From a virus (taxonomy: Duplodnaviria; Caudoviricetes): a stretch of 53,998 nt of DNA. The stretch spans positions 1 to 53,998 of IMG/VR virus record IMGVR_UViG_3300020182_000047. One strand, given 5' to 3'. Every line of letters begins with the position of its first letter. The first letter of the stretch is position 1. Under the pieces are notes generated by a model. That model searched no databases. It saw only the letters and a program-made list of their open reading frames with translations, and was not told the origin of the DNA. The translations under genes were made by a program, and so were the position numbers. This document shows, one piece after another, positions 5,641 through 48,500 of the stretch.

Positions 5641-8283
5641 ATGTTTGGTAACAAATTGATTAACACTAACGCTGGTGGTGGTTGCACTAATACAGTAGAT
5701 TTATACAACCCATTTCCAGATGGCGGGGGTGTAGCTTTATATCAATTAAATGGCGATGCTACTGATGTTAGTGGGAACTATGATGGTACTGCTACAGATG
5801 TTACTTATGGTGCGGGAGAGTTTGGTCAAGCAGGTGTTTTTAATGGGAGTAGTAGTTTAATCACACTACCATCTTCAATAAACACAAGTTATATTAATCC
5901 TTCAGGTCAATTTAGTTTTTCTTTATGGGTTAAATTAAATGAGGTTGGAACTAATCAATATAGAATAATTGATTTTGATGTTCCAAACAATATAGAATTA
6001 ACATTAAACGCTAATGGTCAACAAGCTGGTAAAATTATATGGGTTATATATAATACAAGTTATGAATATTTAGTTTCAAATACAACTGTAGTTGCTAATA
6101 CTTGGTATCATATATCTGTGACTTACAATAATGGTTTTTCAGAATTATTTATTAATGGTTCAAGCGAAGGAACTATGAGTAAAACTTTAGTTCAAAGTAG
6201 TCAAAATATCGGCTTGGGAGCAAGGTTTAATAATACTGAAAACACAAACGGCTCAATAGACCAAGTAAGATTTTTCAACAGAGCATTAAGACCTTACGAA
6301 GTAGAGGCTTTATATACAGAAGAATATTGCACACCTACTATTGTACCAAGTGAGCATTTTAATACTGTCTTGTATGAAGGAAATGGTGGTACTTTGCCTA
6401 TTACAGATGTAGGATTCCAACCAGATTTTGTTTGGTTGAAATGCAGAAATGTAGCTAAAGACCATAGGCTTTATGATTCAGTAAGGGGTGTAGCTAATTT
6501 TTTAGAATCAAACAATACAGATGCAGAAGCCGTAGCAGCTACAAGTTTGACTTCGTTTGATACAAATGGATTTACTTTAGGTGCAGCAACTACAACAAAT
6601 TCTAATGGAGACGATTTCGTTGCTTGGAACTTTAAAGCAGGAGGCGCAGCAGTAACAAACACAGACGGTACAATAACAAGTCAAGTATCTGCTAATACAG
6701 AAGCAGGGTTTAGTGTTGTTGGTTATACAAGTTCAGGAAGTGTTGCAACCGTAGGACACGGATTGGGGGTTGCTCCAAATATAATTATAGCTAAAAACAG
6801 AGGTAATTCTGGTGCTTGGAATGTTTATATTTCTGAAATAGGAAACGATAAAAGATTAAGATTAGATGACACTTCTGCAGCTACTTCAAATACTGTTTGG
6901 GGAAACACTAATCCAACTGATAGTGTTTTCACTCAAGATGTAACGGCAGCAACAACTAATATTATAGCCTACTGCTTTGCAGAAGTAGAAGGTTTCTCAA
7001 ACTTTGGTTCGTATGTTGGTACAGGAGCAAGTGGTAATACTGTTGTAACAGGATTTGAGCCTGCTTTTGTTATGATTAAGGGTACAAGCCTTGCAAGTCA
7101 ATGGAATATTCTTGACAATAAAAGAGATACAACAAATCCAGCTACCCATAGATTATTTGCAAACCTATCTAATGCAGAATCAACAGGCATAAATGCTTTG
7201 AGTTTTTTAGAAAATGGTTTTGAAATAAATAATAGTGACGCAGGATTTAATGGAAGTGGACAATCATACATCTATATGGCATTTGCTGCTGACCCTACTA
7301 CAATAGAACCTTCTTTAGAGGACAGTTTTAATATTGTTTTATATACAGGAGATGGAACTTCAAATAGAACTATTAGCGGTTATGGATTTGACCCAGATTT
7401 TCTTTGGATGAAGCCAAGAAATTTTGCTTATTCACATAATCTTTATGATACAGTTAGAGGAGATGGAATTAGATTGGTTACTAATTCAACGGCTGCAGAC
7501 CAAGATATTCAATACCTTAAATTTACAAATGATGGATTTATTGAAGATGCAAGTAGAAATAATGAAAGTGGTGTTGATTATGTTGTTTGGGGTTGGAAAG
7601 GAGCAGAAATACCTGCTATAAACAGTAACGGTAGTATTCCTTCTGTTGTTAGTGCAAATCCTGCTGCTGGTTTTAGTATTGTTAGTTATAATAGTAATGG
7701 AACCGCTGGTTCAACAATAGGTCACGGATTAGAAGCAGAACCTAAAATGATTATTGTTAAAAATAGAGATGACGTAGATAAATGGGCTGTTTATCATAAC
7801 TCTATTGGAGCAACAGATTTTCTAGTTCTAAACGAAACGGCAGCAGCAGTTTCTTCATCTGCTTATTGGAATAATACGAGTCCTAATTCAAACGTGTTTA
7901 CGGTTGGGTCAACATCTCCTGTTAATTCGCCTAATAACGAAAACTACATAGCCTACTGCTTTGCAGAGGTTGCAGGGTTCAGTAAATTTGGTAGTTATAC
8001 AGGGACAGGAAGTGCAAGAACAATATCTTTAGATTTTACCCCTGCTTTTGTTATGATTAAAAGAACAGGTACAACGGGTTCTTGGCAGATATTTGATAAT
8101 AAAAGAAGTACATATAGATTAATTCCTAATAGCACTTCTGCGGAACAACAATCCGCAGGAACTAATGATGAGGTTACTCTTGTAGCAAATGGGTTTACTT
8201 TACCAACTGATGCAGGTAACGGAAATAATAGTGCTTTAGCAGGGAACACCTACATCTATATGGCATTTGCTAATCAATTTTAA
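5641..8283 (+). CDS. Tail/receptor-binding protein: LamG (concanavalin-like) domain plus two tandem beta-rich repeat domains
   Basis: FSFSLWVK..WYHISVTY..GSIDQVRFFNRAL is LamG-like. Two copies of FN.VLY.G.G..PDF.W.K.R...AGFS.V.Y...IAYCFAEV.GFS.FGSY.G...YIYMAFA follow. Confidence 0.7.
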   Translation: MFGNKLINTNAGGGCTNTVDLYNPFPDGGGVALYQLNGDATDVSGNYDGTATDVTYGAGEFGQAGVFNGSSSLITLPSSINTSYINPSGQFSFSLWVKLNEVGTNQYRIIDFDVPNNIELTLNANGQQAGKIIWVIYNTSYEYLVSNTTVVANTWYHISVTYNNGFSELFINGSSEGTMSKTLVQSSQNIGLGARFNNTENTNGSIDQVRFFNRALRPYEVEALYTEEYCTPTIVPSEHFNTVLYEGNGGTLPITDVGFQPDFVWLKCRNVAKDHRLYDSVRGVANFLESNNTDAEAVAATSLTSFDTNGFTLGAATTTNSNGDDFVAWNFKAGGAAVTNTDGTITSQVSANTEAGFSVVGYTSSGSVATVGHGLGVAPNIIIAKNRGNSGAWNVYISEIGNDKRLRLDDTSAATSNTVWGNTNPTDSVFTQDVTAATTNIIAYCFAEVEGFSNFGSYVGTGASGNTVVTGFEPAFVMIKGTSLASQWNILDNKRDTTNPATHRLFANLSNAESTGINALSFLENGFEINNSDAGFNGSGQSYIYMAFAADPTTIEPSLEDSFNIVLYTGDGTSNRTISGYGFDPDFLWMKPRNFAYSHNLYDTVRGDGIRLVTNSTAADQDIQYLKFTNDGFIEDASRNNESGVDYVVWGWKGAEIPAINSNGSIPSVVSANPAAGFSIVSYNSNGTAGSTIGHGLEAEPKMIIVKNRDDVDKWAVYHNSIGATDFLVLNETAAAVSSSAYWNNTSPNSNVFTVGSTSPVNSPNNENYIAYCFAEVAGFSKFGSYTGTGSARTISLDFTPAFVMIKRTGTTGSWQIFDNKRSTYRLIPNSTSAEQQSAGTNDEVTLVANGFTLPTDAGNGNNSALAGNTYIYMAFANQF
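6352..8270 (+). repeat. Internal tandem domain duplication (about 6352-7290 and 7318-8270)
   Basis: Two homologous domains of about 310 aa. DNA is locally near-identical, e.g. atagcctactgctttgcaga and tacatctatatggcatttgct each occur twice. Confidence 0.8.
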
Positions 8284-10733: not shown

Positions 10734-11024
10734 ATGACACTTTTTTACCGCACTCATTCGTGGAGTAGTGAACCACAAATTACCGATGAAACCAAGAAGT
10801 TATGGAGGCATATAGCCGAAAAAACTAACTGGAGAATCACCCAATTACCAAACGGTTTTTTTCAAACCGAATACCAAGATCTAGAAAAAGAAGATGCTTG
10901 GAACGACGTAACCAGAAGAGAAACAGTCGCTGGTGCTGAAGCTGCTATTGATTCAACAGTAGAGCATTATGCTAAAAAGCTGGAATTCTTAGACGGGCCT
11001 AAAGTCGTTAAAACCTTTAAATAA
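10734..11024 (+). CDS. Hypothetical protein (96 aa)
   Basis: Clean ORF with an A-rich leader, first gene upstream of groEL. Confidence 0.7.
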   Translation: MTLFYRTHSWSSEPQITDETKKLWRHIAEKTNWRITQLPNGFFQTEYQDLEKEDAWNDVTRRETVAGAEAAIDSTVEHYAKKLEFLDGPKVVKTFK

Positions 11025-11049
11025 AATACTACTCAAATCAAATTAAATT

Positions 11050-12609
11050 ATGTCAGACGCAATTGTCAAGAACCTAAGTTTCGGTAACGAAGCTAAGGAC
11101 AAAGTATTTGAAGGTATCACAAAACTCACAAAAGCCGTTAGCTCCACGCTCGGGGCTAGCGGTAAATGTGTGATGCTTGAAGATGGAAATGGAAGACCAA
11201 TTATAACAAAAGACGGTGTAACAGTAGCGGATAGTATTATACTATTAGACCCTGTAGAAAATATGGGGGCTACACTTTTAAAAGAAGCTGCTAGAAAAAC
11301 CGTAAGCGAAGCAGGTGATGGTACAACAACCGCAACTGTATTAGCGCACTCTATACTAACTGAAGCTTACAATGTAGCTGATAAGATTAGTTCAAGGGAT
11401 TTAAAAATAGGTATAGACAATGCCGTAGATAAAGTAGTTAAATACTTAGAATCAATATCAGTTGGTGTTAGCGGCGATATGATAGATCAAATTGCTACTA
11501 TATCAACAAACAATGACGCAGAGCTTGGTAAACTAATCGGTGATGCTTTTAGAGCAGTTGATGAAACAGGTGTGGTTATGATGGAGACATCGTCAGATGG
11601 CACCACAGCAGTAGAAATAGTTGACGGAGTACAATACAACAAAGGGCTAACGAACTCACATTTTGTTACAAGCAAAAGTCAAAGAGTTGCTGAATTAGAA
11701 AACCCTTATGTATTATTAGTTGAATCACCAATTGATAATATTAGACAAATTCAAAGCGTGCTAGAGTTTGTTATAAAAGGTAATAAGTCTTTACTTGTAA
11801 TTGCAGACATAGACCAACCAGTACTTGCAACTTTAGCAATGAATAAAGTTAAAGGTAATTTAAAGATTAATGTTATCAATGCGCCAACATATGGTGTAGC
11901 TAAAAAAGAAACATTAGATGATCTTGCAATGCTAACTGGTGCTACTATTATAAACGAAGACTTAGGAGATGATTTAGATTTAATTAATCCTCAATACCTA
12001 GGTAATTGTATAAAAAGTGTAACTACAGACGAAGAAACAATATTACAAGTTGGAGAAGTTTCAGAAGAGGTTCAAGATACTATAAAAGGTATTAAAGAAA
12101 AACTTGTTACAACTAAAGAGCCTTACGAAATAGTAAAACTTGAAAAAAGATTAGCGAGACTAGCGGCTAAAATAGCTATTGTAAAAGTTGGTGCTAATTC
12201 TGAAATTGAGTTAAAAGAAAAGAAAGATAGGGTAGAAGATGCTATCTGCGCAACTAAAGCCGCAATTAAAGAAGGTATTGTACCTGGGGGTGGTATTGCA
12301 CTACTAAACGCATCGGAAACAGTTAAAGCTAAAACAATAGGTGAAGAAGCTTTATTAGAGGCTATTAAGGCGCCATTTAAGACCATTTTAGAAAATGCAG
12401 GTATAGAGTATCAAGAATCTCTTAGAGGCAAAGGAATTGGTCTAAATGTAATAACTGGTAAAAAAGTTAATATGATCAAACACGGGATTATTGATCCATT
12501 ACTGGTTACTAAAAGTGCGCTTAGAAATGCAGCTTCAGTTGCTACAACTATTTTATCTACGGATTGTGTAATTAATAACTTAAGGGTAACGAATGAAAGC
12601 AATAGGTAG
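11050..12609 (+). CDS. groEL: Phage-encoded group I chaperonin GroEL
   Basis: ITKDGVTVA, AGDGTTTATVLA, KDRVEDA..ATKAA..EGIVPGGG and GIIDP motifs; no GGM tail. Confidence 0.97.
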   Translation: MSDAIVKNLSFGNEAKDKVFEGITKLTKAVSSTLGASGKCVMLEDGNGRPIITKDGVTVADSIILLDPVENMGATLLKEAARKTVSEAGDGTTTATVLAHSILTEAYNVADKISSRDLKIGIDNAVDKVVKYLESISVGVSGDMIDQIATISTNNDAELGKLIGDAFRAVDETGVVMMETSSDGTTAVEIVDGVQYNKGLTNSHFVTSKSQRVAELENPYVLLVESPIDNIRQIQSVLEFVIKGNKSLLVIADIDQPVLATLAMNKVKGNLKINVINAPTYGVAKKETLDDLAMLTGATIINEDLGDDLDLINPQYLGNCIKSVTTDEETILQVGEVSEEVQDTIKGIKEKLVTTKEPYEIVKLEKRLARLAAKIAIVKVGANSEIELKEKKDRVEDAICATKAAIKEGIVPGGGIALLNASETVKAKTIGEEALLEAIKAPFKTILENAGIEYQESLRGKGIGLNVITGKKVNMIKHGIIDPLLVTKSALRNAASVATTILSTDCVINNLRVTNESNR

Positions 12610-12853
12610 AAACTTAATAATAGAAAAAGTAAAAGAAGGTACTACTGAAACAAAAGGTGGTTTACTTCTTGCCGAGAACCAAAGGGAAGACATTAGGTAT
12701 ATTATGGCTAATGTAATTTCTGTAGGTGATGAAACAGCTGGTATAAAAGAAGGTGATCAAATTTATTATGATCGTCATGCCGGACATAAAATAGAGGTAG
12801 AAAAAAATATTTACCATATTATAAAATTACAAGATGTAGTTGTTGTTCTATGA
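12593..12853 (+). CDS. groES: Co-chaperonin GroES
   Basis: MKAIGRNLII..ETKGGLLL..VISVG..IKEGD.I.Y pattern; overlaps the end of groEL. Confidence 0.9.
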   Translation: MKAIGRNLIIEKVKEGTTETKGGLLLAENQREDIRYIMANVISVGDETAGIKEGDQIYYDRHAGHKIEVEKNIYHIIKLQDVVVVL

Positions 12854-13955: not shown

Positions 13956-14411
13956 ATGATTAGTAAGCACATATCTGATAAAGAAGGTAATTATTCAAGG
14001 ACCGCTTTAAGACGCGGTATAGATAATACTCCTGAGCCATATCACTTGGTTAATATGCAGGTTATTGCTGAACTAGTTTTTGAACCGCTTAGAGAATGGG
14101 TTAAAGGACCTATTAAGATTAATTCATTTTACAGATGTAAAGAATTAAATTCAGCTATAGGTGGAAGTGTTAAATCTCAACATTGTGAAGGTAGAGCTAT
14201 TGATATTGACGATACATTTGGTTATAAGACTAATGCTCAAATGTTCGAATATATTAAAGATAATTTAGATTTTGATCAATTAATCTGGGAATTTGGAGAC
14301 AATAAAAATCCTGATTGGGTTCATGTTAGTTATGTCTCTATTGATGAAAATAGAAGAAGAATATTAAAAGCTTATAAGCTTAATGGCAAAACAACTTATA
14401 AAATTATATAA
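13956..14411 (+). CDS. Endolysin, peptidase M15A (D-Ala-D-Ala carboxypeptidase-like)
   Basis: INSFYRC..LNSAIGGS..SQHCEGRAIDID...WVHVSY zinc peptidase motifs. Confidence 0.88.
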   Translation: MISKHISDKEGNYSRTALRRGIDNTPEPYHLVNMQVIAELVFEPLREWVKGPIKINSFYRCKELNSAIGGSVKSQHCEGRAIDIDDTFGYKTNAQMFEYIKDNLDFDQLIWEFGDNKNPDWVHVSYVSIDENRRRILKAYKLNGKTTYKII

Positions 14412-14695
14412 TGGCGTATATACAAAACTCTCCTCTTAATAAGCTTAAGAAAACAACTAAAGGCAAAGGAAGACACTTCCTTACTGCCAAAGAAGGCGCT
14501 GGAATGACAGAGGCTGGGCGTAAAGCTTACAACAAAGAAACAGGCGGTGATTTAAAAGCTCCACAGCCAGGAGGGGGTGCTCGTAAAAAAAGCTATTGCG
14601 CTAGATCTAAGGGTCAAATGAATATGCATAATATAGATTGTTCAAAAACACCAGATAAAAGAATTTGTGCCGCTAGGCGTAGATGGAAATGTTAA
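14411..14695 (+). CDS. Small basic Cys-containing phage protein
   Basis: GMTEAGRKAYN..TGGDLKAP..RKKSYCARSKGQ...RRRWKC; N-terminus MAYIQNSPL. Confidence 0.7.
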   Translation: MAYIQNSPLNKLKKTTKGKGRHFLTAKEGAGMTEAGRKAYNKETGGDLKAPQPGGGARKKSYCARSKGQMNMHNIDCSKTPDKRICAARRRWKC

Positions 14696-14716
14696 TTAAT
14701 AAATAAAATAAATATT

Positions 14717-14926
14717 ATGCCAAACATTAGTAAAAAAACAGCTTACGACGTTAAGGAAGCAAGCAACCAATCACTTACTGCATCAGCTAGAAAAAACTAT
14801 GCAAAAGATGCTCAAGCAGGAATGAAAGACGATAGTCCAATGTCTATGTATGGATCACCTGCTAAAATGAACAACTCTCCAATGCAAATGAAAGGTTCTT
14901 GGATGAGTAAGCACTGCTCAAAGTAA
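14717..14926 (+). CDS. Small protein with SPxxM repeats
   Basis: DDSPMSMYGSPAKMNNSPMQMKGSWM. Confidence 0.65.
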   Translation: MPNISKKTAYDVKEASNQSLTASARKNYAKDAQAGMKDDSPMSMYGSPAKMNNSPMQMKGSWMSKHCSK

Positions 14927-15093
14927 TGGAATCCAAAGGTTTAGGTGACACTATAGAAAAGATCACTACAGCAACTGGTATTAAAACCGTAGTTGATAAA
15001 GTGTCAGAGGGTCTTAATATTCCTTGTGGTTGCCAAAAAAGAAAAGAAGCTTTAAATAATATGTTTCCTTATAATGGCGTTCAAACTAAATAA
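14926..15093 (+). CDS. Small CxC protein (55 aa; not in ORF track)
   Basis: TAATG-coupled start; MESKGLGDTIEKITTATGIKTVVDKVSEGLNIPCGCQKRKEALNNMFPYNGVQTK. Confidence 0.7.
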   Translation: MESKGLGDTIEKITTATGIKTVVDKVSEGLNIPCGCQKRKEALNNMFPYNGVQTK

Positions 15094-15394
15094 TCCTCCA
15101 TATTTTATTGATAATACACCAATATACAAAACCGACTTAGGTAATGATATATTAGGTAAAGCTAATAAAAATGGTAGTATATTAGTAAACAAAAATATAA
15201 CAGACGAAAAACAAATAAATGATGTTATAAAACATGAAAAAGTTCATCTTGATCAAATGCAAAGAGGCGACTTAGATTATAACGACAGTGCAGTTTTTTG
15301 GAAAGGTAAAAAATATTCAAGGGCGCAAATGAAAGAAGGCGCTAAAAATCTTCCTTGGGAAAAAGAAGCTTATAATAGATCTAAAACAAAATAA
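15074..15394 (+). CDS. Small zincin-like metallopeptidase
   Basis: HEKVH with downstream PWEKEAY; MAFKL N-terminus. Confidence 0.65.
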   Translation: MAFKLNNPPYFIDNTPIYKTDLGNDILGKANKNGSILVNKNITDEKQINDVIKHEKVHLDQMQRGDLDYNDSAVFWKGKKYSRAQMKEGAKNLPWEKEAYNRSKTK

Positions 15395-15396
15395 CT

Positions 15397-16071
15397 ATGG
15401 CATTTAAATTAAAAAATTCAAGTCCATTTAGTTTGATTAATGAAGGGCCTGGTGATGATACTAAAAAACAAAGCTCACCAAAAGCTAACTCTGAATCAAT
15501 AAATAAAATAAATGAATGGAATAAGTCAAGATTAGCAACTGGAAGATTTAATGACCAATTAGGCGGAGGTAAGTTAAAAAACCAAAGCGATAATATGACT
15601 TCTACAAAAATAGTTAGTAAAGAAAAATATTTGAGAGATATTGATCCCGAGTTAGGACCAGCTTCAGGAGCTTACAGTCCGGAAGATCATACCATGTTCT
15701 CGGAACCTTCTTTAACAGAAAGAGTTATAAATAAATTTACCGGTAGATCCGGAACTAAATTTCACGAAACCGCTCATTCCGCAAGAGCTATTCCGCAAAT
15801 AAATAAAATTAAAGAGGTAATAAAGACTAAAACTGAAGATCCATATTATAACAATCCAGAAGAAACATATTCCAAATTAATGGAATTAAGAATTGACAAT
15901 AATGTTAATCCTAATAAGTTTTGGAGCAAAAAAGATTTACCTGAGTTAAGAAGTATGTCTAAGCGATTTGACAAGCCATTTTTAGAATATTACAGTGACA
16001 ACGAGCTTTTGGATTTAATGAACAAAGTTGCTGTAAACAATAAAAAAACAAATAATAAAAATATAGTATAA
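15397..16071 (+). CDS. Putative zincin-like metallopeptidase
   Basis: GAY...HETAH...PEETYS; N-terminus MAFKLKNSSPF. Confidence 0.55.
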   Translation: MAFKLKNSSPFSLINEGPGDDTKKQSSPKANSESINKINEWNKSRLATGRFNDQLGGGKLKNQSDNMTSTKIVSKEKYLRDIDPELGPASGAYSPEDHTMFSEPSLTERVINKFTGRSGTKFHETAHSARAIPQINKIKEVIKTKTEDPYYNNPEETYSKLMELRIDNNVNPNKFWSKKDLPELRSMSKRFDKPFLEYYSDNELLDLMNKVAVNNKKTNNKNIV

Positions 16072-16083
16072 AACAAAATAATT

Positions 16084-16416
16084 ATGGCGTTTAAAATGAA
16101 ACACAGTAGTCCTTTAAGTATGATTAATAAAGGAAAAAAAGACAACACCAAAGATGGAGGCAGAATGAGTGCTTCTGAAGCGTCTGCGTCTGCAAAGCCG
16201 GATATGGAAGTAACCATTACAGCTAAAAAGAAAACTGTACCTAGAGGATATGCAGCTCCGGCCGGAGATGTTAAAAAAGGTAGAAAAGTTAAAGAGATAA
16301 AAAAAGAAAGAAAATTTGACACAGTATCTTTATCTCAAAAAGAAAAACAAGGCGCAAAAGGTGCTAAATGGGCTAAAACAAAAACTTATAGCGTACAGAA
16401 CGTAAAGTTTAACTAG
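16084..16416 (+). CDS. Basic hypothetical protein with MAFKM..SSP leader
   Basis: Lys-rich; first ~23 aa are homologous to those of 15397. Confidence 0.6.
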   Translation: MAFKMKHSSPLSMINKGKKDNTKDGGRMSASEASASAKPDMEVTITAKKKTVPRGYAAPAGDVKKGRKVKEIKKERKFDTVSLSQKEKQGAKGAKWAKTKTYSVQNVKFN

Positions 16417-16418
16417 TT

Positions 16419-16877
16419 ATGCCTAAAGATAAAAAGCCTTTTAAAGAAACCGGGCTGGGTAAATTTTTACTCGGCGCTGGTTCTACTATTATAGATGTAG
16501 TAGGCGATGTGCTTCCAGATAAAGGTCTTTTAGGCGTAGTAAAAAATTTAATAGATAAAGATCCAGATCTTAGCGATGATCAAAAAGCTGAAGCTCACGA
16601 TAGATTAGTAGAACTTTATAGATTAGAAGTAGAAGATAGGGATTCTGCTAGAAAAAGAGAGGCTGCTATAGTTAAGGCTGGCGGCTCAGACTGGATGATG
16701 TCTTTAACAGGTATTATAGGATTAGCAGCATTTGCTTTTTTAGTTTATACAGTAGTTACTACAGAAGTACCGCAATCGAATAAAGAAATTTTTATACATT
16801 TGCTAGGAATCGTTGAAGGGGTAGCATTGTCAATATTTGGATACTACTTTGGATCAGCTGTTAAAGAAAATAAATAA
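16419..16877 (+). CDS. Membrane protein, holin (3TM/GTA-type)-like
   Basis: DRDSARKRE followed by two TM helices ending GYYFGS. Confidence 0.6.
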   Translation: MPKDKKPFKETGLGKFLLGAGSTIIDVVGDVLPDKGLLGVVKNLIDKDPDLSDDQKAEAHDRLVELYRLEVEDRDSARKREAAIVKAGGSDWMMSLTGIIGLAAFAFLVYTVVTTEVPQSNKEIFIHLLGIVEGVALSIFGYYFGSAVKENK

Positions 16878-22865: not shown

Positions 22866-24044
22866 ATGTCAGAAACAGTAAAACAAGAAGGGGATTTCAA
22901 ATTGCAAAAGAAAAAACCTGCAATGAAAAAACTAAATAGTAATAGCAATGTTACTAAAGTTGATTTAACACCTAAAAAAGAAGAAGATGCCATTCAAGAG
23001 CAAGTCGCAGATGAAAGCGTGTTACGCACAGAACAACCCGAATTGGGATTGCAAGAAGTGGTCGAAGGAAACGAAGAACAAAAAGTCGTTGCCAAAGAGG
23101 TTGTTGAAGAAGAGCCAGTAGTTATTCAAGAAATAACTGATGAAGAAGTTGTTGAAGAAACACAAAAATTAACCGAAGACGTACAGGAAGCAATTGCTGA
23201 ATCAAAAGAAACAGGAAGAGCGTTACCGGAGAACATTGAAAAATTAGTTTCTTTTATGGAAGAGACTGGTGGAACGGTTGAAGACTATGTTAGGTTAAAT
23301 GCTGATTACACAAATGTAGATAACAATACATTACTTAAAGAATACTATAAAAAAACAAGACCTCATTTAGATGCTGAAGAAATACAATTCCTTATGGAAG
23401 ACAACTTTAGCTATGATGAAGAACTTGACGACGAGCGAGATGTAAGAAAAAGAAAACTCGCTTTTAAAGAAGAAGTTGCAAAAGCCAAAGACTATCTGGA
23501 AACTATTAAAGGTAAATATTACGAGGAAATCAAGTTGAGACCTGGTGTTACCCAAGAGCAACAGAAAGCAATGGACTTTTTCAACCGATATAACGAAGAG
23601 CAAAGTATGGCGGCTCAGCAACATGAGAAATTTAAAGCTGATACCCAAAAACTTTTTTCTGATGATTTCAAAGGTTTTGACATCAATGTAGGAGAAAAGA
23701 AATTTAGGTATGGCATTCAAAACGTTGAACGAGTAGCTGAAAACCAATCAAACATCAATAACCTAATTAAGAAGTTCTTAAATGATGATGGTGAAGTTGT
23801 AGATACAAAAGGTTATCACAAAGCTATGTATGCCGCTGAGAACATTGACAAAATAGCAGCACACTTTTATGAGCAAGGAAAATCCGATGCAGTAAAAGAA
23901 GTTGTTACTAATTCTAAAAATCCATCTACAACGCCTAGACAAACAACAGCGGGGGATGTATTTATTAATGGATTAAAAGTTAAAGCAATTAGCGGTCTTG
24001 ATTCTTCAAAACTTAAAATTAAAACAAAGAAATTTAACAATTAA
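22866..24044 (+). CDS. Capsid scaffolding-type protein
   Basis: Very acidic and helical; lies between portal and MCP. Confidence 0.65.
   Translation: MSETVKQEGDFKLQKKKPAMKKLNSNSNVTKVDLTPKKEEDAIQEQVADESVLRTEQPELGLQEVVEGNEEQKVVAKEVVEEEPVVIQEITDEEVVEETQKLTEDVQEAIAESKETGRALPENIEKLVSFMEETGGTVEDYVRLNADYTNVDNNTLLKEYYKKTRPHLDAEEIQFLMEDNFSYDEELDDERDVRKRKLAFKEEVAKAKDYLETIKGKYYEEIKLRPGVTQEQQKAMDFFNRYNEEQSMAAQQHEKFKADTQKLFSDDFKGFDINVGEKKFRYGIQNVERVAENQSNINNLIKKFLNDDGEVVDTKGYHKAMYAAENIDKIAAHFYEQGKSDAVKEVVTNSKNPSTTPRQTTAGDVFINGLKVKAISGLDSSKLKIKTKKFNN
22987..23121 (+). CDS. Overprinted small basic protein (44 aa, +1 frame inside scaffold gene)
   Basis: MPFKSKSQMKACYAQNNPNWDCKKWSKETKNKKSLPKRLLKKSQ; A-rich leader and locally atypical codon usage in the host frame. 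Confidence 0.55.
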   Translation: MPFKSKSQMKACYAQNNPNWDCKKWSKETKNKKSLPKRLLKKSQ

Positions 24045-24055: not shown

Positions 24056-25501
24056 ATGGCAGTAGTCGCACCCGTTTATGGGTCAATTAAACCATCTCAG
24101 AAACAACAACTTCTTGAGAGCAATTATTTAAACTTTACAGACGGATCTGGAAATGATTTCGCACAACAATACTTACCTGAGATTTATGAGGCAGAAGTAG
24201 AGCGCTATGGAAATAGAACTTTATCTGGTTTCTTAAAAATGGTTGGTGCTGAAATGCCAATGTCTTCTGATCAAATCGTATGGTCTGAGCAAAACAGATT
24301 ACATATCGCTTATGATAGCGTTACAAAAGCAACTGATACAACTTTAACATTCGCTTTGAATGCTACAGCTGGCCCAAGCTTTGTACAAAACGTTATCTCT
24401 AAAAACCAAACATTAGTAGTTATTGATCCTGCAACAGGACAAGACTTAAAAGTTTTTGTAACAGATAGCGTTAACACTTCTTCTACATTAGCTACTATTA
24501 CAGTAAAACCTTATACTGCTGCTGATATGGCTGCTTTATCTGGAACTGCTGGAGCGCTTAAAATCTTCGTTTATGGTTCTGAATACAAAAAAGGAACTAC
24601 AGATGCTGATATTAAGTCTGTAACGCCTTCTTTCACTCAGTTCTCTAACTCTCCAATCATTATCAAAGAGAAATATGCTATCTCTGGATCTGATACTGCT
24701 CAAATTGGATGGGTTGAAGTTGCTACTGAAGACGGTGCTTCTGGATACTTATGGTATTTAAAAGCTGAATCTGAAACTCGTTTACGTTTTGAAGATTACT
24801 TAGAAATGTCTGTAGTTGAAGGAGAATTAGTTTCTGGAGCTTCTACACTAGATACTGTTGAAGGTATCAAAGGTACTGAAGGTTTATTCGCAGCTGTACA
24901 ATCAAGAGGTAACGTATTAAACAACTTTACTGCAGCTTCTGGATTAGCTGACTTTGATAGCATCTTGAAAAACTTAGATACTCAAGGAGCAATTGAAGAA
25001 AACATGTTATTCTTAAACAGACAAACTTCTTTAGATTTTGACGATATGCTTGCTGGTTTATCTGCTGGAGCTAATGGAGGTACTGCTTATGGATTGTTTG
25101 AAAACTCTGCTGAAATGGCGTTAAACTTAGGTTTCACTGGATTCAGAAGAGGTTCTTACGATTTCTATAAGACTGACTGGAAATACTTAAACGATGCTTC
25201 CACTCGTGGTGCTTCTAACGGAGCTGGACAAGTAGGATCTGGTATTGATGGTGTATTAGTACCTGCTGGAACTTCTACAGTATACGATCAAATCTTAGGA
25301 ACAAATATCAGAAGACCATTCTTACACGTACGTTATAGAGCTTCTCAAGCTGACGACAGAAGAATGAAATCTTGGATCACTGGTTCTGTAGGTGGAGCTT
25401 ACACTTCTGATCTTGATGCAATGGAAGTACACTTCCTTTCTGAAAGATGTTTAGTAGTTCAAGCAGCTAACAACTTCGTGTTGTTTACTGCATCTGCATA
25501 A
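24056..25501 (+). CDS. Major capsid protein
   Basis: 481 aa with strongly biased codons (gct, act, ttc, aac); follows the scaffold gene and is followed by a terminator hairpin. Confidence 0.85.
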   Translation: MAVVAPVYGSIKPSQKQQLLESNYLNFTDGSGNDFAQQYLPEIYEAEVERYGNRTLSGFLKMVGAEMPMSSDQIVWSEQNRLHIAYDSVTKATDTTLTFALNATAGPSFVQNVISKNQTLVVIDPATGQDLKVFVTDSVNTSSTLATITVKPYTAADMAALSGTAGALKIFVYGSEYKKGTTDADIKSVTPSFTQFSNSPIIIKEKYAISGSDTAQIGWVEVATEDGASGYLWYLKAESETRLRFEDYLEMSVVEGELVSGASTLDTVEGIKGTEGLFAAVQSRGNVLNNFTAASGLADFDSILKNLDTQGAIEENMLFLNRQTSLDFDDMLAGLSAGANGGTAYGLFENSAEMALNLGFTGFRRGSYDFYKTDWKYLNDASTRGASNGAGQVGSGIDGVLVPAGTSTVYDQILGTNIRRPFLHVRYRASQADDRRMKSWITGSVGGAYTSDLDAMEVHFLSERCLVVQAANNFVLFTASA

Positions 25502-35809: not shown

Positions 35810-38800
35810 ATGTACGAATATAACGGTCGCCCAATTACTTTGGAGCAAATTCAAAGTGCAGCACAGAAATCAAATTTAAGTGTTGAAGAATATATTGCCA
35901 AAGCCGGCATAGTTACCAAAAGTGAAGAGCCGGGAAAGACAACAAGCCAGGGACAGGGTGCGCCTGTGGCGGGAACTGCAGCACCCGAAGTTCAAGCAGA
36001 AGGTACGGATTCTACATTGGAAGATGGTTCTTTGGAATTAGAAGAAATTAGCTTAGAAGAAAAAAAGAGCTTACCATATTCCGTAAGAAATAGAATATCT
36101 TCTACAAATGGCGACTTTTCAAGAGGCAATGTTAATTCAATATTAAAAACATTAAATCTTAAAAAATTAGATGTTAAAGATTTTGAAACTAAAAAAATAA
36201 ACGAAAACTACGATAAAGAATACGCAATATTTAAAGAAAATCAAGAAGATCCAGCCAGGATGACCGCCTTGAGGGAAGCTAAAATAGATTTATTAGCTCC
36301 TAGAATTGATAAAACAATTTTAAAAAGTAAGTTAAATCAAGCGTTAGTAGATGTTGAAATTACTAGCGACGAAATGCAAGAAACAAAGCGCCAAGAAATT
36401 TATGGCATGGCTATAGCTGCGGATAAATATTTGTCTCAAGACTTGCCTGCAGACATTATTAAGGCTTATTCTAAGGAAATAAATATTAAAAGAGATCAAT
36501 TATCTAATAAGTATGATTTAACCACACAAGAAGGCTTTGATAAGGCTAATAATGAATATAATGCATTTATAGATAACGTAGTTCAGGCAGGGTGGAATTC
36601 AAATCAAACCGCACAAGAAAGAAACGCATTATTATTAAATACTTTAGGAGAAGTTTTATCTCTTAAGGCTACAAATTATACTAGAAAAACAGAGTTAGGA
36701 CTTGGACCTTTAGATGATAATTATACTAAAGGCGAAACTATGGAAGAGGGCCTAAAAAAAGGGGCTAGACAAATAAAAGGCAGTGTAGAAAAATCTATAG
36801 CAGCTGGTATTCTTGAAAATATAAATAATTTACAAGATGAATTAAATAATTTACCTATAAATGAAAACGAAGTTGTTTCGTTTGGGGGCACAGAAATGCC
36901 TAGACAGGGTATTGTTTCTGGAGGCAAAAGCGGCACTGTAAAAGAGGCCAAAAAATTTTATGAAAATAAAATATTAGAATTAAAAAAAGATGCTTTAAGC
37001 AAAGTTGTAAATGTAAAAGAGGAAGAAAAAATTCAGCAAGCATTTAGACAAGCAAGTCTTACTGATGGGAATGTAACTCTCGACGACATTCTTTTGTTAG
37101 CCTCAGAGCAAGCACTGCAGCTTCCTTTAGCAGCGCTTACATATGGGGTTGGTACTTTTGCGCAGGAATTTGGCACGTCGTATTTTGACAACATTGACGC
37201 TTATATTGAAAACAATAAATTAAATCCAGCGTTAAAAGAGCAATTAAAGAAAAAAGAAATTACTCAAGAAGAATATGATTCCGCTTTAAACGCTTTAAGA
37301 ACTCCTGAAAATATTTTAGAAGCTTCTGAAAAAGGGGGAGGAAGTTTTGAAAATGCATTAGCTGTAGGTATAGGAAATTCTGCTTTAGAATATATTGGAG
37401 CAAGCACTATAGCAAAAGGAATATTTGGCAAAGAAGCAGCAAAAAAAGGAATAACAAGCCTTGTAAACGATGGATTTAAAAAATATATAAAATCTAAAAC
37501 CTTGCAGGGAAGCGTTGAAAATATTACAAAATCTGGTTTTGTTGAATTTTTAACAGAATCATTTCAAACCGCTTCAAGTCAATTAGGTAAAGGAGCAAGC
37601 GTTGATGATCCTTTTAAATATATTAATATAGAAGAAATAAAAGAGTCCGCCGTTTCAGGTGGTGTAATTGGAGCATTGTTTCCGTTTGCTGCAGGCGGGT
37701 CTAAAGCAACATTTAGAGAAAGCATAAATACTGCTAAAAAAATAGCAGCTAATTTTAATGAAGAGGCTACTTCAAATTATTTGGATTTAGCAATAAAAGA
37801 AATTAAACAATCTAATGTTTTATCTGCAGTAGAGAAAGAGCAGCAATTGGAAGCAGTTGCTGAAGTTAGAAACGCTAATGTTAAGATTCCTTCATTTATA
37901 AAGGGAGACGCTAAAGTAGAGGCATTAAATCTTATAATAGAAAAAAAATCTTTAGAAAAAATTATTTCTGAAGCGGATCCAAATTTAGTTGTTGAAGAAA
38001 AAGCTAGGGTAGAAGAAATAAATAAAAAAATACAAGACGTTGCTGTAAAATCAAAAATAACTGAGCTTGGAGAAAAAGATATTGCTCAAGCTAAAAAAAT
38101 AACAGAGCAACTACCCGAGTTAAAAACGGTTGTAAAAGATTTTAATACAACAGCGGAACTTGAAGAAGAATTAAAAAATCAAGGTAAATCAGAAGCAGAA
38201 GCAAAAAAACTTTCTGATGACTTTGGATTTATAGTGCAAAAAAAAGATGGCACACAAGAAATATATATAAACAAAGAAATATCTTTTGATTCAGGAGTAG
38301 CTACCACGGCGCAACACGAGGTGCTTCATTCTGTATTAAAAAACCTTATACCAGGAAATATTGCTCTTGGGCAAAACTTAAAAGATTTTGTAGAAGAGAT
38401 TGCTGGAGACGGGTTTATGGGCACTGAGTTTTCAAAAAGATTTGAAAGCTATGAGCTTCAATATGAAGATAAAATAAACCAATTAAATTCGCAACTAGAA
38501 AAAAACGAAATATCTGAAGATGAGTTTTCAACCAAAGCTAAGTCTGCTTTAGAGAACATGTGGGAGGAAACCATGCCGTTATTATCCGAGTCCCTTACAA
38601 GAGGCGATATAGACTCTAAAGCTACAATATTTGAAAAGCTTAAAGATTTCTTTAATAGAATATTTAATACATCAAATATTAAAAACGTAAAATTCAATAC
38701 AGGTGAAGATGTATTTAATTTTATAAAAGACTACAATAAAATATATAAGTCCGGTAGAGGAATTAAAACATTAAAAAATGTAGTTCAAGGACAAGTAGAG

Positions 38801-43115: not shown

Positions 43116-43388
43116 ATGGAACCATTAATTATTATTTTAGGATTATCAATATTATTAAACATTGTATTAGGCTTTATGCACTTAGGCAAAATTAAAGATG
43201 CCGATAAAGACTTTATACCTGATGCTATTGAAGATAAAGCAGCTAAGGTAAAAGAACAAACCATGCATCGTTTAGGAAGAATTAAAGAAGAGTTAGCCGA
43301 TGTAGGTGCTGCTATTAAAGAAGTTGGGAATCAAATTGGCGATTTACCAGATGCAGCAAAAGGTAAAACAAGAAAAGGTAGAAAATAA
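43116..43388 (+). CDS. Small membrane-anchored protein
   Basis: N-terminal TM helix, DADKDFIPD loop, coiled coil and basic tail. Confidence 0.65.
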   Translation: MEPLIIILGLSILLNIVLGFMHLGKIKDADKDFIPDAIEDKAAKVKEQTMHRLGRIKEELADVGAAIKEVGNQIGDLPDAAKGKTRKGRK

Positions 43389-43504
43389 TGAAAAAGAAAA
43401 AAGTAAAAGCTTGCTGGTCAGGATATGAAGCAATAGGTTTTAAAATGAAAGGACAAAAACGTGTACCTAATTGTGTACCTGTTAAAAAGAAAGGAACAAA
43501 ATAA
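43388..43504 (+). CDS. Tiny basic CWxGY...VPNCVP peptide (38 aa; not in ORF track)
   Basis: TAATG-coupled; MKKKKVKACWSGYEAIGFKMKGQKRVPNCVPVKKKGTK. Confidence 0.65.
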   Translation: MKKKKVKACWSGYEAIGFKMKGQKRVPNCVPVKKKGTK

Positions 43505-45375: not shown

Positions 45376-45592
45376 TTCCTAGATCTAATTTAGTTTCTGA
45401 TTCTTCTTTTATCTTTTCTTTTAACTGCTCTATAGCTTCTTCATAACCAGGCATTAATTTAATTGCCTCCAAAGTGCCTACAGATAGATCTTTTAAATAA
45501 GTGTTTTCACTTAATAATTGTTGTACTACATTTATTAATGCTTGTACTTTTTTTTCTAGCAGATCCTGTCTACTTTGTTTTTCACCTTTCAT
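45362..45592 (-). CDS. Hypothetical coiled-coil protein
   Basis: 76 aa ORF between nrdB and nrdA. Confidence 0.65.
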   Translation of the reverse strand: MKGEKQSRQDLLEKKVQALINVVQQLLSENTYLKDLSVGTLEAIKLMPGYEEAIEQLKEKIKEESETKLDLGNDVE

Positions 45593-45607
45593 ATTATTTA
45601 ATTTAAT

Positions 45608-46576
45608 TTACCATATATCTTCAAAATCTTCTCCTTCACCCGCTTTGCTATAATCTGTTGGACGAGTAGCAAAAAAATCAGTGTGAGTAACGCCACCTGT
45701 AAGGTGATAGAACCAGTCGAGGTTTTTTGATCCTTTTTCGTCAAATGCAAAGTAGGACCCAAGGTCGACGTATCCAAGTTCAACGAGCTTTTCGTTAAGT
45801 CTTTTTCTAATAAATTGCTTGAGATCGTAAGCTTTAATTCCTTCAACGTCTCCTGCTTCAAACATTTTGTCAATATAATTTTCTTCAGCGTTTAGCATTG
45901 ATTCCGCCGCAACTACAACATCTTCTCTGCAATTGTTTAATAATTCTTTATCTTCTTCACACATGTGTCTAAATAGCTGACAACCCATTCTGCTGTGTAA
46001 AGACTCATCCCTTACACTCCATTTCATTTGCTGGCCTATACCTTTAAGAAGATTTCTAAGTTGAAAACTATATAGTACAGCAAAAGCAGAGTAAAGAGAA
46101 ACGCCCTCAGCAAAAGCAGAAAATATGGCCAAAGACTTAGCAATACCACGAGTATCATTACCTTCATAAGAAACGAGCGCGTTAAATCTGTCCATTGTAG
46201 CTTCATCTTGTAAAAAAGCTTTAAAATCTTCCAGTCCAAGTGTTTCATTTAAATAAGAATAAGCAACAGCATGAATTGTTTCTTGCGAACCGAATATCAT
46301 TGCCATTTGTTGTATTTCATGTTTAGGGAACCATCCAACCACTTTTTGTGTCCAGTAATCTGACACAGCGCATTCTGTTTGCGCAAAACCTAATAGTATA
46401 TTACCTACTAAACTTTTTTCTTCTAACGTTAACCTTTCGTTCCAATCTTTAACATCACCTGACATACTAATCTCAGTATGCAACCAAAACGCTTGGGCTT
46501 GTTTTAGCCAGCCTTCAGTAAAGTATATTGGATATTCAAAAGGTTTGTATTCAATTCTTGGTGTAAATAATCCCAT
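45608..46576 (-). CDS. nrdB: Ribonucleotide reductase class I beta subunit
   Basis: FWLHTEI, ETIH..AY, EGVSLYSAF and RDESLH diiron motifs. Confidence 0.95.
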   Translation of the reverse strand: MGLFTPRIEYKPFEYPIYFTEGWLKQAQAFWLHTEISMSGDVKDWNERLTLEEKSLVGNILLGFAQTECAVSDYWTQKVVGWFPKHEIQQMAMIFGSQETIHAVAYSYLNETLGLEDFKAFLQDEATMDRFNALVSYEGNDTRGIAKSLAIFSAFAEGVSLYSAFAVLYSFQLRNLLKGIGQQMKWSVRDESLHSRMGCQLFRHMCEEDKELLNNCREDVVVAAESMLNAEENYIDKMFEAGDVEGIKAYDLKQFIRKRLNEKLVELGYVDLGSYFAFDEKGSKNLDWFYHLTGGVTHTDFFATRPTDYSKAGEGEDFEDIW

Positions 46577-47725: not shown

Positions 47726-47726
47726 A

Positions 47727-48488: not shown

Positions 48489-48500
48489 AACAATTTGTTT

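What the first reader, a model, noticed from the sequence alone, without database searches (positions are those of the whole stretch)
14411..16416. Shared N-terminal MAFK..SP leader on unrelated small proteins: possible capsid-targeting or processing signal
Seen: MAFKLKNSSPFSLINEGPGDDTK (15397) and MAFKMKHSSPLSMINKGKKDNTK (16084) share about 23 aa and then diverge completely. MAFKLNNPPY (15074) and MAYIQNSPLNK (14411) are variants. Gene 14717 carries three internal SPxxM repeats, the putative ejection protein at 34282 starts MSYKSP, and the nested peptide at 22987 starts MPFKSK. The cargo portions differ: two HExxH peptidases, one Lys-rich protein and one Cys/basic protein. Known: T4 internal proteins share a short N-terminal capsid-targeting sequence. 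Inference: this is a modular leader-plus-variable-cargo system for loading effectors into the head.
Basis: partly seen in the sequence, partly recalled or inferred. Interest (0 to 1): 0.8.

Follow-up and report, generated by a model that had tools for sequence, protein, structure and literature searches.

The report
Shared N-terminal tag on phage proteins
A group of marine flavobacterial phages puts the same short N-terminal tag (MAFKMKG..SPF) on dozens of unrelated small basic proteins and always carries one tagged mini-metalloprotease, which looks like a protein-sorting system, probably for loading proteins into the virus particle, though that function is untested.

Summary
g15397 and g16084 share 15 of their first 23 residues and nothing else. 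g15074 shares MAFKL.

These fall into 71 unrelated cargo clusters: small (median 112 aa), Lys-rich and compositionally disordered. 111 of 117 such loci belong to the window's own phage lineage, GroEL-encoding podophages of Flavobacteriia.

The tag is modular both ways. One cargo occurs with and without it, and one tag sits on many cargos. Synonymous codon variation shows selection on the peptide.

g15397 is a 600-nt cargo insertion flanked by an 87-nt duplicated leader joint, so cargos are swapped by recombination at the tag.

A single-copy tagged HExxH mini-zincin (g15074 family) is present in 9 of 9 tag-positive contigs that are at least 90% complete, plus the window, G004 and G005. It is absent from every tag-negative relative, including one whose replication module is 95-97% identical to the window's.

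The function is inferred, not shown. My best reading (confidence 0.38) is a virion-loading or processing tag, analogous to the T4 capsid-targeting sequence and to eCIS loading sequences. No virion data exist, and the co-folding run gave no verdict.

The parts
15397..15465 (+). Leader of g15397: MAFKLKNSSPFSLINEGPGDDTK
   Evidence: 15/23 identical to the g16084 leader. Leader HMM 30.6-32.7 bits. AF2 pLDDT about 30-38 over residues 1-30.
15397..16071 (+). g15397, 224 aa: leader plus an HETAH-containing cargo. The cargo is a 600-nt cassette absent from the closest relatives.
   Evidence: Absent between the g15074 and g16084 orthologues in L005, L006 and L007. 6 of 7 aligned family members (the window's own protein plus 5 database homologues) carry the leader and one (P0058) lacks it. 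The cargo is homologous to crAss-like cr125_1 gp057, which is encoded between portal and major head protein.
16084..16152 (+). Leader of g16084: MAFKMKHSSPLSMINKGKKDNTK
   Evidence: 36.2 bits.
16084..16416 (+). g16084, 110 aa: leader plus a Lys-rich cargo with no known family.
   Evidence: 33 homologues at E<=0.01. Of the 15 aligned sequences (window protein included), 8 have this leader on this cargo, 5 have the cargo with another N-terminus, and 2 have the leader with a divergent cargo. No Pfam or PHROG hit.
15074..15394 (+). g15074, 106 aa: MAFKL start plus a minimal HExxH (zincin-like) domain. It is the single-copy family that co-occurs with the tag.
   Evidence: 79/79 family members keep HExxH. 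Present in 22/26 tag-positive contigs and in 9/9 that are at least 90% complete. Absent from tag-negative relatives. AF2 pLDDT 77; the best Foldseek hits are zincins but weak, E>=0.37.
14411..14695 (+). g14411, 94 aa: DUF6321 protein with a degenerate leader-like start, MAYIQNSPLNK.
   Evidence: PF19846 57.1 bits against a cut-off of 28.5. DUF6321-type cargos elsewhere start with MAFKMKG.
14717..14926 (+). g14717, 69 aa, with internal SPxxM repeats and ...MQMKGSW. Possibly related; not a significant match.
   Evidence: Leader HMM E 0.14-0.23. In L014 this position holds a 237-aa MPFKMKGSPLN protein instead.
15382..15468 (+). Left copy of the duplicated 87-nt joint: 15 nt upstream plus 72 nt of leader.
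   Evidence: Window 15382-15468 and 16069-16155 both align to the same segment of L005, L006 and L007. 15/20 upstream and 46/69 coding bases are identical between the two copies.
16069..16155 (+). Right copy of the duplicated joint.
13956..14411 (+). Context: M15 peptidase (endolysin) directly upstream of the cluster.
   Evidence: PF08291 E 9e-14; phrog_894 endolysin E 1e-27.
16419..16877 (+). Context: 152-aa protein with C-terminal hydrophobic segments, directly downstream. Holin-like by architecture only.
   Evidence: Sequence. Only PHROGs of unknown function match. Its homologue follows the HExxH and leader genes in L010, L011 and G004.

Best explanation
The MAFK[ML]K(G)x(S)P[FLM] N-terminus is a lineage-specific peptide tag.

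Shown:
- It is a portable, disordered module of about 6-14 residues under selection at the amino-acid level.
- It sits on dozens of unrelated, small, Lys-rich, compositionally disordered accessory proteins.
- These belong to one clade of GroEL-encoding Flavobacteriia podophages.
- Cargos are exchanged by recombination within the tag.
- The tag co-occurs with one single-copy tagged HExxH mini-zincin, the g15074 family.

Inferred:
- The tag directs these proteins to a common destination, most probably the procapsid or virion interior, as internal or ejected proteins.
- The mini-zincin is the co-targeted enzyme that processes the tag or the cargo.
- In logic this resembles the T4 capsid-targeting sequence with its prohead protease, and eCIS N-terminal loading sequences.
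For: Modularity:
- Exact MAFKMKG starts 154 distinct proteins in a capped scan. 149 of the 150 complete ORFs are at least 45 aa.
- 152 of these proteins fall into 71 cargo clusters, 53 of them singletons.
- A profile search of 1.84 billion representatives returned 15 hits at E<=1e-3. 14 are N-terminal tags on unrelated sequences.
- The same cargo occurs with and without the tag.

Peptide-level selection:
- Synonymous codons vary (GCA/GCG/GCT, TTT/TTC, AGY/TCN Ser, ATG/CTA/TTA).
- 6 of the 15 conserved residues between the two window leaders use different codons.

Lineage restriction:
- 111/117 loci share genes with the window and 88/117 hold a core gene.
- 5/5 tested contigs have the same MCP family at 51-56% identity.

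Co-occurrence with the zincin:
- 22/26 contigs, and 9/9 that are at least 90% complete, have exactly one hit. The window, G004 and G005 also have it.
- The gene is absent from G006, MW202828 and elemoF, and from the fetched parts of phi38:1 and Panino. These also lack the tag.
- HExxH is kept in 79/79 family members.

Cassette exchange: the 87-nt joint is duplicated around the 600-nt g15397 cargo.

Cargo properties fit proteins that are packed with DNA and pass a narrow channel:
- median pI 9.6 and K+R 22.6%;
- order-promoting residues 20% against 31% in the other window ORFs, Mann-Whitney p 3e-15.

Other points:
- The tag is predicted to be disordered.
- The genes lie in the late block, upstream of terminase, portal and MCP.
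- The g15397 cargo has homologues in crAss-like phages that are encoded between portal and major head protein.
- Analogues in print (passages read): the T4 CTS on diverse internal proteins (PMC3012670), and the AlgoCIS system-specific disordered N-terminal loading sequence with an optional DUF4157 zincin-like domain (bioRxiv 10.64898/2026.05.27.728243).
Against: - No tagged protein has been shown to be in a virion, and I found no cultured tag-positive phage in the phage collection.
- Close relatives with homologous MCP, portal and scaffold-like genes do without both tag and zincin (G006, MW202828, elemoF). The g16084 cargo persists in G006 with another N-terminus. The tag is therefore not needed for assembly, nor necessarily for this cargo.
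- A small basic protein family annotated 'structural protein' in phi38:1 (gp080) occurs in tag-positive genomes without the tag.
- The zincin assignment is weak: no Pfam family above its cut-off, no PDB sequence hit, best Foldseek E 0.37.
- The co-occurrence is partly built in, because the zincin itself bears the tag.
- No cleavage site can be read from the sequences.
- The cluster sits between an endolysin and a holin-like gene, so a role in lysis is not excluded.
Confidence: 0.38

Rival explanations
1. The tag is a docking or substrate motif for a cytoplasmic partner, not for the capsid. In this reading the mini-zincin recognises and cleaves the tag to activate, inactivate or time a set of accessory proteins inside the infected cell. 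Alternatively, the tag binds a host hub protein of Flavobacteriia.
For: - The single-copy HExxH gene co-occurs strictly with the tag.
- The motif is not strictly N-terminal. P0046 carries it at both ends, and several proteins have 3-6 residues in front of it. That fits a linear binding motif.
- Relatives assemble capsids without it.
- The top fold matches, though weak, are site-specific regulatory zincins: IrrE/PprI, and CapP at rank 36.
Against: - The cargos are mostly low-complexity basic sequences with no recognisable enzymatic or regulatory domain. 10 of 10 of the largest have no Pfam or PHROG hit.
- The genes lie in the late structural and lysis block, not the early block.
- No partner has been identified.
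Confidence: 0.25
2. The tag controls protein stability as an N-terminal degron or protease-recognition signal. Residue 2 is always small (A/G/P/S) and so permissive for Met removal. Residue 3 is aromatic (F/Y), and a basic and a hydrophobic residue follow. The tagged proteins would be made and then removed on a schedule.
For: Residues 2-5 follow M-[AGPS]-[FY]-[KR]-[LMI] across families. The resemblance to known bacterial N-terminal recognition signals for AAA+ proteases is recalled from memory and was not tested here.
Against: - The conserved part extends to G-x-S-P-[FLM], beyond a minimal degron.
- Copies occur at a C-terminus and behind N-terminal extensions.
- There is no obvious reason for 3 to more than 10 late proteins, including a protease, to share a degron.
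- I did not check whether the hosts have the relevant adaptor or protease.
Confidence: 0.12
3. The peptide has no function of its own. The shared 5' end would be a translation-initiation and recombination cassette, spread by duplication and gene conversion among neighbouring genes.
For: - About 15 nt upstream of the ATG are also shared between g15397 and g16084, 15/20 identical.
- g15397 arose by insertion at this joint.
- The starts are A-rich.
Against: - Synonymous sites vary while the amino acids stay the same, including Ser encoded by AGY or TCN and Met/Leu exchanges.
- The motif is kept on 71 cargo clusters, across genomes whose MCPs are only 51-56% identical.
- Upstream sequences differ widely among the 37 leaders listed.
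Confidence: 0.08
4. The tagged proteins are lysis accessory factors: cationic membrane- or wall-active proteins released at lysis, with the tag serving that pathway.
For: - In the window the cluster lies between an M15 endolysin and a holin-like membrane protein.
- The order HExxH gene, tagged gene(s), holin-like gene recurs in L010, L011 and G004.
- The cargos are cationic.
Against: - In G004 and G005 tagged genes are scattered over several genome regions.
- The tagged proteins examined show no signal-peptide- or lipobox-like start.
- Up to ten or more diverse cargos per genome is atypical for lysis genes.
Confidence: 0.05

Closest known systems
T4 capsid-targeting sequence (CTS) of the internal proteins IPI-III/Alt, with the prohead protease
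   Same: - A short conserved N-terminal peptide sits on otherwise unrelated, highly diverse, basic proteins, and the diversity is read as an arms-race repertoire (PMC3012670, passages read).
- Here: one tag on 71 cargo clusters, Lys-rich cargos, cassette exchange at the tag, and a dedicated tagged protease candidate.
   Different: - This is a podovirus lineage with no T4-like core or gp21-type protease.
- The candidate protease is a ~100-140-aa HExxH protein, not a serine protease.
- No cleavage or packaging has been shown.
- Sequence similarity to the T4 CTS was not tested.
- The tag can also sit at a C-terminus.
eCIS cargo loading sequences (AlgoCIS Cgo1/Cgo2, PVC Pdp1/Pnf): disordered N-terminal loading sequence, optional DUF4157 domain, variable C-terminal domain
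   Same: - A system-specific, disordered N-terminal sequence is shared by cargos of one system and attached to variable effector parts.
- Some cargos carry a zincin-like domain right behind it (bioRxiv 10.64898/2026.05.27.728243, passages read).
- Here g15074 is tag plus zincin-like domain, and the tag is predicted to be disordered.
   Different: - The PF13699 (DUF4157/eCIS_core) match is not significant: 1 of 8 members at E 0.069, and none in the window.
- No AAA+ loader gene was found among the window ORFs scanned.
- The tag is much shorter, about 6-14 aa.
- The carrier would be a capsid or short tail, not a contractile tube.
crAss-like phage cargo proteins (PhicrAss001 gp45, gp46 and RNAP subunits stored in capsid and tail)
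   Same: - These are related Bacteroidota podophages that carry megadaltons of internal cargo, ejected partly unfolded (PMC10172136, passages read).
- The window encodes a 2428-aa giant protein behind the tail genes.
- The g15397 cargo has crAss-like homologues next to the portal gene.
   Different: No shared targeting peptide is described for crAss cargo in the passages I read. The crAss homologue of g15397 lacks the tag.
Minimal zincin metallopeptidases (minigluzincins such as selecase and abylysin; IrrE/ImmA M78; SprT-like)
   Same: About 100-aa HExxH proteins. These are the best Foldseek and Atlas neighbours of g15074.
   Different: All matches are below significance. No Pfam family reaches its cut-off and there is no PDB sequence match.

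Membership tests
T4-type capsid-targeting-sequence system | One short conserved N-terminal peptide on otherwise unrelated proteins of one phage group | tested here: met
   154 MAFKMKG proteins, of which the 152 of at least 45 aa form 71 cargo clusters. 111/117 loci belong to one lineage.
T4-type capsid-targeting-sequence system | Tagged proteins are present inside the virion | not testable with these tools
   No virion proteome of a tag-positive phage is available. Supplements are closed, and the Cellulophaga phage proteome paper is not held.
T4-type capsid-targeting-sequence system | The tag is removed by a prohead protease at a defined site | not testable with these tools
   A tagged HExxH candidate co-occurs with the tag. 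Neither a cleavage site nor activity can be read from the sequence.
T4-type capsid-targeting-sequence system | Cargo genes are exchanged at the conserved leader (hypervariable cassettes) | tested here: met
   An 87-nt duplicated joint flanks the 600-nt g15397 cargo. A different tagged gene replaces g14717 in L014.
eCIS-type cargo (loading sequence + DUF4157) | Disordered, system-specific N-terminal sequence shared among cargos | tested here: met
   pLDDT below 50 for residues 1-5 of g15074 and 1-30 of g15397. The tag is restricted to one lineage.
eCIS-type cargo (loading sequence + DUF4157) | DUF4157 / PF13699 domain | tested here: not met
   No match in the window at E<=1. 1 of 8 family members matches at E 0.069, below the cut-off.
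eCIS-type cargo (loading sequence + DUF4157) | Dedicated AAA+ loader | tested here: inconclusive
   In 20 larger window ORFs scanned with Pfam, the only P-loop/AAA-type hits are in the primase-helicase. TerL was named by PHROGs. Small ORFs were not all scanned.
Zincin metallopeptidase (g15074) | HExxH motif conserved | tested here: met
   79/79 distinct family members. H54, E55 and H58 are invariant in A5.
Zincin metallopeptidase (g15074) | Membership of a curated peptidase family, or significant fold similarity | tested here: not met
   Pfam hits to M76, M90 and M91 are all below their cut-offs. Best Foldseek E 0.37, TM 0.36. No PDB sequence hit.
DUF6321 (g14411) | Pfam PF19846 above the gathering score | tested here: met
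   57.1 bits against a cut-off of 28.5, E 2.9e-15.
RiPP precursor peptides (conserved leader, variable core) | Short Cys/Ser/Thr-rich core and a neighbouring modifying enzyme | tested here: not met
   The cargos are 45-431 aa, some with folded domains. No modifying enzyme appears in the Pfam or PHROG scans of the window.

The most novel reading that the evidence does not exclude
A clade of marine Flavobacteriia podophages has a self-contained protein-loading system. It would consist of a 6-14-residue N-terminal address tag and a co-packaged mini-zincin that matures the cargo. With it the phages would fill their capsids with an interchangeable, fast-evolving repertoire of small basic effector proteins, probably anti-defence or DNA-condensing, that are injected with the DNA. 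New cargos would be captured by recombination at the tag. This would be the first capsid-targeting signal known outside T4-like myoviruses, and a ready-made tag for loading foreign proteins into Bacteroidota phages.
Probability: 0.33. Interest if true: 0.8.

Novelty: new variant of a known kind. Interest (0 to 1): 0.66.

Why it matters
How podophages select the proteins they carry and inject is unknown, including for crAss-like relatives that store megadaltons of cargo. Here there is a short, portable tag with a defined consensus, at least 71 natural cargo families, natural tag-minus sister genomes, and one invariant enzyme partner. Together these make the question testable by virion mass spectrometry, N-terminomics and tag-reporter fusions.

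If the tag is a loading signal, it gives a handle for delivering proteins with Bacteroidota phages. It also points to a large pool of uncharacterised injected effectors in abundant marine viruses.

If instead it is a protease-recognition or stability tag, it would be a new kind of phage-encoded post-translational control over a whole gene set.

Tried and rejected
- **Co-folding.** I co-folded the 30-residue leader alignment (A3) with the MCP alignment (A6) and the scaffold-like alignment (A7). Score 0.00 against a mark of 0.32, controls not run: 'no answer', which counts neither for nor against binding. Portal (803 aa) and zincin-plus-leader pairs could not be tried because the cap is one job.
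- **tblastn against the 50,697-record phage collection.**
  - g16084 gave no match.
  - A tagged HExxH protein of L011 gave no match.
  - An 80-aa tagged protein gave only two chance-level hits.
  - So I found no cultured tag-positive phage.
- **Profile search of 1.84 billion representatives.** The 30-column leader profile yielded only 15 hits at E<=1e-3, one of them an ankyrin-repeat false positive.
- **AF2 of g15397.** Mean pLDDT 52, too poor to search, so no fold search was run on it.
- **Pfam and PHROGs on ten of the larger tagged proteins (260-431 aa).** 0 of 10 had any hit.
- **Candidate partners rejected.**
  - g10734 (96 aa) is also present in tag-negative G006.
  - Phage GroEL/GroES is also present in tag-negative relatives.
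- **An alternative shared leader in tag-negative genomes.** None was found in G006 or MW202828. The MSYKMNPGSKEK-type start of some g16084 orthologues is therefore just another N-terminus.
- **34282 (MSYKSP) and 22987 (MPFKSK).** Not matched by the leader HMM, so dropped.
- **RiPP-precursor reading.** Rejected (see the membership test).
- **Literature.** The strings MAFKMKG, FKMKGSP, AFKMKG and MPFKMKG occur in 0 papers of the held library. The Cellulophaga phage proteome paper could not be opened under the two ids I tried.
Full report
**What the window is.** The 53,998-base window is a whole contig. IMG/VR classes it as linear and CheckV puts it at about 84% complete. It is a podophage of Flavobacteriia.
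- Its MCP (24056..25501) matches Caudoviricetes sp. MW202828 (52%), Maribacter phage Panino (48%), Flavobacterium elemo phages (43%) and Cellulophaga phi38:1/Calle (37%).
- A long plus-strand late block carries tail fibres, GroES/GroEL, an M15 endolysin, TerL, portal, a scaffold-like gene, MCP and a 2428-aa giant protein.
- A minus-strand block carries replication and nucleotide-metabolism genes.
- No prohead protease family was detected.

**The observation.**
- g15397 and g16084 share 15 of 23 N-terminal residues (E 4e-8) and nothing else.
- Among 1653 ORF pairs of the window this pair has 14 identities at positions 2-23; the runner-up has 8.
- Only three of 439 ATG-ORFs start MAFK, and they are neighbours.
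- The two leaders differ at 23 of 69 coding bases, and 6 of the 15 conserved residues use different codons. This is not a fresh DNA duplicate.

**The leader is modular.**
- One cargo with different N-termini. Of 33 database homologues of g16084 I aligned 14 with the window protein.
  - 8 of the 15 sequences carry MAFKMK(H/Y)SSP.. on this cargo.
  - 5 carry the same cargo behind an unrelated start (MSYKMNPGSKEK..).
  - 2 carry an almost identical leader on a cargo only 33-36% identical overall.
- In the seven-sequence g15397 alignment (window protein plus 6 of the 7 database hits), 6 carry the leader and one (46% identical) has an 18-residue deletion in its place.
- The g15397 cargo also occurs, untagged and TAG-recoded, in crAss-like phages between portal and major head protein.
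- The HExxH domain of g15074 occurs untagged in Xanthomonas phage XacN1 and Methylophilales phage Melnitz.
- One leader with many cargos. A degenerate DNA pattern for MAFK[LMI]Kx[ST][ST]P[LF] found 16 viral-contig loci.
- These give 154 distinct proteins. 150 are complete ORFs and 149 of those are at least 45 aa, with median 112 and maximum 431. One 11-aa ORF looks like chance.
- After removing the first 14 residues, 152 proteins fall into 71 single-linkage clusters, 53 of them singletons.
- The larger clusters are a 27-member family of unknown function, the HExxH family (18) and DUF6321-type proteins (7).
- A 30-column profile search of 1.84 billion representatives gave 15 hits at E<=1e-3. 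14 are N-terminal tags on unrelated sequences and one is an ankyrin false positive. One protein, P0046, carries the motif at both its N- and C-terminus.
- These sets are biased to the exact MAFKMKG variant and are lower bounds.

**Consensus and level of selection.**
- The core is M-[AGPS]-F-K-[ML]-K-G, followed by [FSW]-[PS]-[FLMY]. A further S/T-P-x-K-Q-like motif often follows.
- Synonymous codons vary freely across 37 distinct leaders, and the upstream sequences differ. Selection therefore acts on the peptide.
- AF2 gives pLDDT below 50 for the tag in both models made.

**Cargo properties.**
- Median pI is 9.6, 68% of cargos have pI above 9, and K+R is 22.6%.
- Order-promoting residues make up 20% against 31% in the other window ORFs. 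Lys is 17% against 9%.
- 0 of 10 of the larger cargos (260-431 aa) hit Pfam or PHROGs.

**Restriction to one lineage.**
- 111 of 117 MAFKMKG loci share at least one gene with the window.
- 88 of 117 contain GroEL, g12850, g17149, g17376, TerL, portal, MCP or g10734 within the 14 kb or less that was fetched.
- 5 of 5 contigs tested whole have the same MCP family at 51-56% identity.
- Complete genomes hold several tagged genes at several places. My scans found at least 6 in G004, at least 7 in G005 and at least 10 in L010. The window has 3, plus g14411 and g14717 as doubtful variants.

**Tag-negative relatives and the mini-zincin.**
- An HMM of the leader run over 4320 ATG-ORFs found nothing in MW202828, elemoF, or the fetched parts of phi38:1 and Panino.
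- G006 is the contig of L008 and is 96% complete. Its replication module is 95-97% identical to the window's and its structural module 51-73%.
- G006 has no M[AP]FK start, no other shared N-terminus set and no g15074 homologue.
- Conversely, the HExxH family is in 22 of 26 MAFKMKG contigs of at least 40 kb. It is in 9 of 9 that are at least 90% complete, always as one hit; the four misses are 65-80% complete. It is also in the window, G004 and G005, and in 70 of 117 loci.
- All 79 distinct family members keep HExxH and most start M[AG]FK[LM].
- The AF2 model (pLDDT 77) has a zincin-like helix with the motif. The top Foldseek hits are IrrE/PprI, selecase and abylysin, with the SprT-type protease and CapP further down the list. 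All are weak: E>=0.37, TM about 0.36.
- No Pfam family reaches its cut-off. The weak hits are to M76, M90, M91 and, for 1 of 8 members, PF13699. No PDB sequence matches. The Atlas neighbours are viral only.
- I therefore call it a probable minimal zincin, not a member of any named family.
- The co-occurrence is partly circular, because the zincin is itself tagged. The informative point is that it is the only cargo that is universal and single-copy.

**Cassette exchange.** Window 14001-15468 and 16069-17499 align to L007 753-2220 and 2134-3562, and likewise to L005 and L006. One 87-nt segment of the relatives (15 nt upstream plus 72 nt of leader) is therefore present twice in the window, flanking the 600-nt g15397 cargo. 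In L014 a 237-aa MPFKMKGSPLN gene stands where g14717 is. New cargos thus enter by recombination in the leader.

**Interpretation.**
- Shown: a portable, disordered, peptide-selected tag; its many cargos; its lineage restriction; its link to one HExxH gene; and exchange of cargos at the tag.
- Inferred: what the tag does.
- I favour (0.38) loading of the tagged proteins into the procapsid or virion, with the mini-zincin as a co-targeted processing enzyme.
  - The architecture reproduces the T4 CTS system: diverse basic internal proteins with only the CTS conserved (PMC3012670, passages).
  - It also reproduces eCIS cargo loading: a system-specific disordered N-terminal loading sequence, an optional DUF4157 zincin-like domain and a variable C-terminal domain (bioRxiv 10.64898/2026.05.27.728243, passages).
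  - The cargos look like proteins that could be packed with DNA and pass a tail channel.
  - Related Bacteroidota podophages carry much internal cargo (PMC10172136, passages).
- Against this reading:
  - There are no virion data.
  - Sister genomes do without the system.
  - The g16084 cargo survives untagged in G006.
  - A small basic family annotated as structural in phi38:1 (gp080) is untagged in tag-positive genomes. The experimental basis of that annotation is recalled, not checked.
- Rivals, detailed in their own section: a cytoplasmic docking or substrate motif for the zincin or a host hub (0.25); an N-terminal stability tag (0.12); a mere recombination and translation cassette (0.08); and lysis accessory proteins (0.05).

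**Novelty.** The motif strings occur in none of the roughly 8.4 million held papers. The families involved have no annotation. I rate the finding a new variant of a known kind, a targeting-tag system with variable cargo. Its function is still to be shown.

Noticed in passing
window 22987..23121 (+), inside g22866 (22866..24044); L001 35959..36090: A 44-aa ORF (MPFKSKSQMKACYAQNNPNWDCKKW...) lies in another frame of the scaffold-like gene. A close copy of it lies inside the giant virion gene of MW202828. In the main frame the two host proteins share DESVLRTEQPxLGLQEV (29/67 identical, E 3e-11). A segment of about 200 nt is thus shared between a scaffold-like gene and a giant internal protein. 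Which frame is under selection is unresolved.
   Followed up: partly
L029 3851..4963 (crAss-like phage cr125_1 gp057): The homologue of the g15397 cargo in crAss-like phages is a ~370-aa protein encoded between portal and major head protein. Under table 11 it is full of in-frame TAG codons, consistent with TAG recoding in that phage.
   Followed up: partly
G006 (L155-L158) versus the window: Strong mosaicism. The replication and nucleotide-metabolism genes (window 43603..52481, minus strand) are 93-100% identical to G006, whereas the structural genes are only 30-73% identical. The tail-fibre and lysis genes are also rearranged.
   Followed up: no
window 43388..43504 (+): A 38-aa ORF, MKKKKVKACWSGYEAIGFKMKGQKRVPNCVPVKKKGTK, contains an internal FKMKG and a CWxGY...VPNCVP motif. 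That motif also appears behind MAFKMKG in L129 and L079.
   Followed up: no
L025 6493..6798 (phi38:1 gp080) and homologues in L016/L030, L041, L087, L123, L143, L008 and L026: A family of ~80-100-aa very basic proteins (…GKDYDH…NRG…) is annotated 'structural protein' in phi38:1. It is conserved across both tag-positive and tag-negative relatives and never carries the tag. No match was found in the window.
   Followed up: partly
protein P0046 (210 aa, metagenomic): It carries the tag at the N-terminus (MAFKMKGFPK..) and again at the extreme C-terminus (..GAFKMKGWSPFTKNKIK).
   Followed up: no
window 10734..12853 (+): The phage encodes GroEL (11050..12609) and a GroES-like gene (12593..12853). 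They are preceded by a conserved 96-aa gene (10734..11024) that is found in tag-positive genomes and in G006, but not in MW202828, elemoF, or the fetched parts of phi38:1 and Panino.
   Followed up: partly
window 5641..8283 (+): An 880-aa tail-fibre-region protein with DUF7483 (E 1e-200) and a concanavalin/laminin-G-like lectin domain.
   Followed up: no
window 35810..43096 (+): A 2428-aa giant protein at the end of the late block. It is 65% identical over 1422 aa to G006, and 44% and 31% identical (best segment) to G004 and G005. No similarity at E 1e-4 to the giant proteins of MW202828, or to the fetched parts of elemoF and phi38:1 (elemoF's giant gene is only partly held).
   Followed up: no
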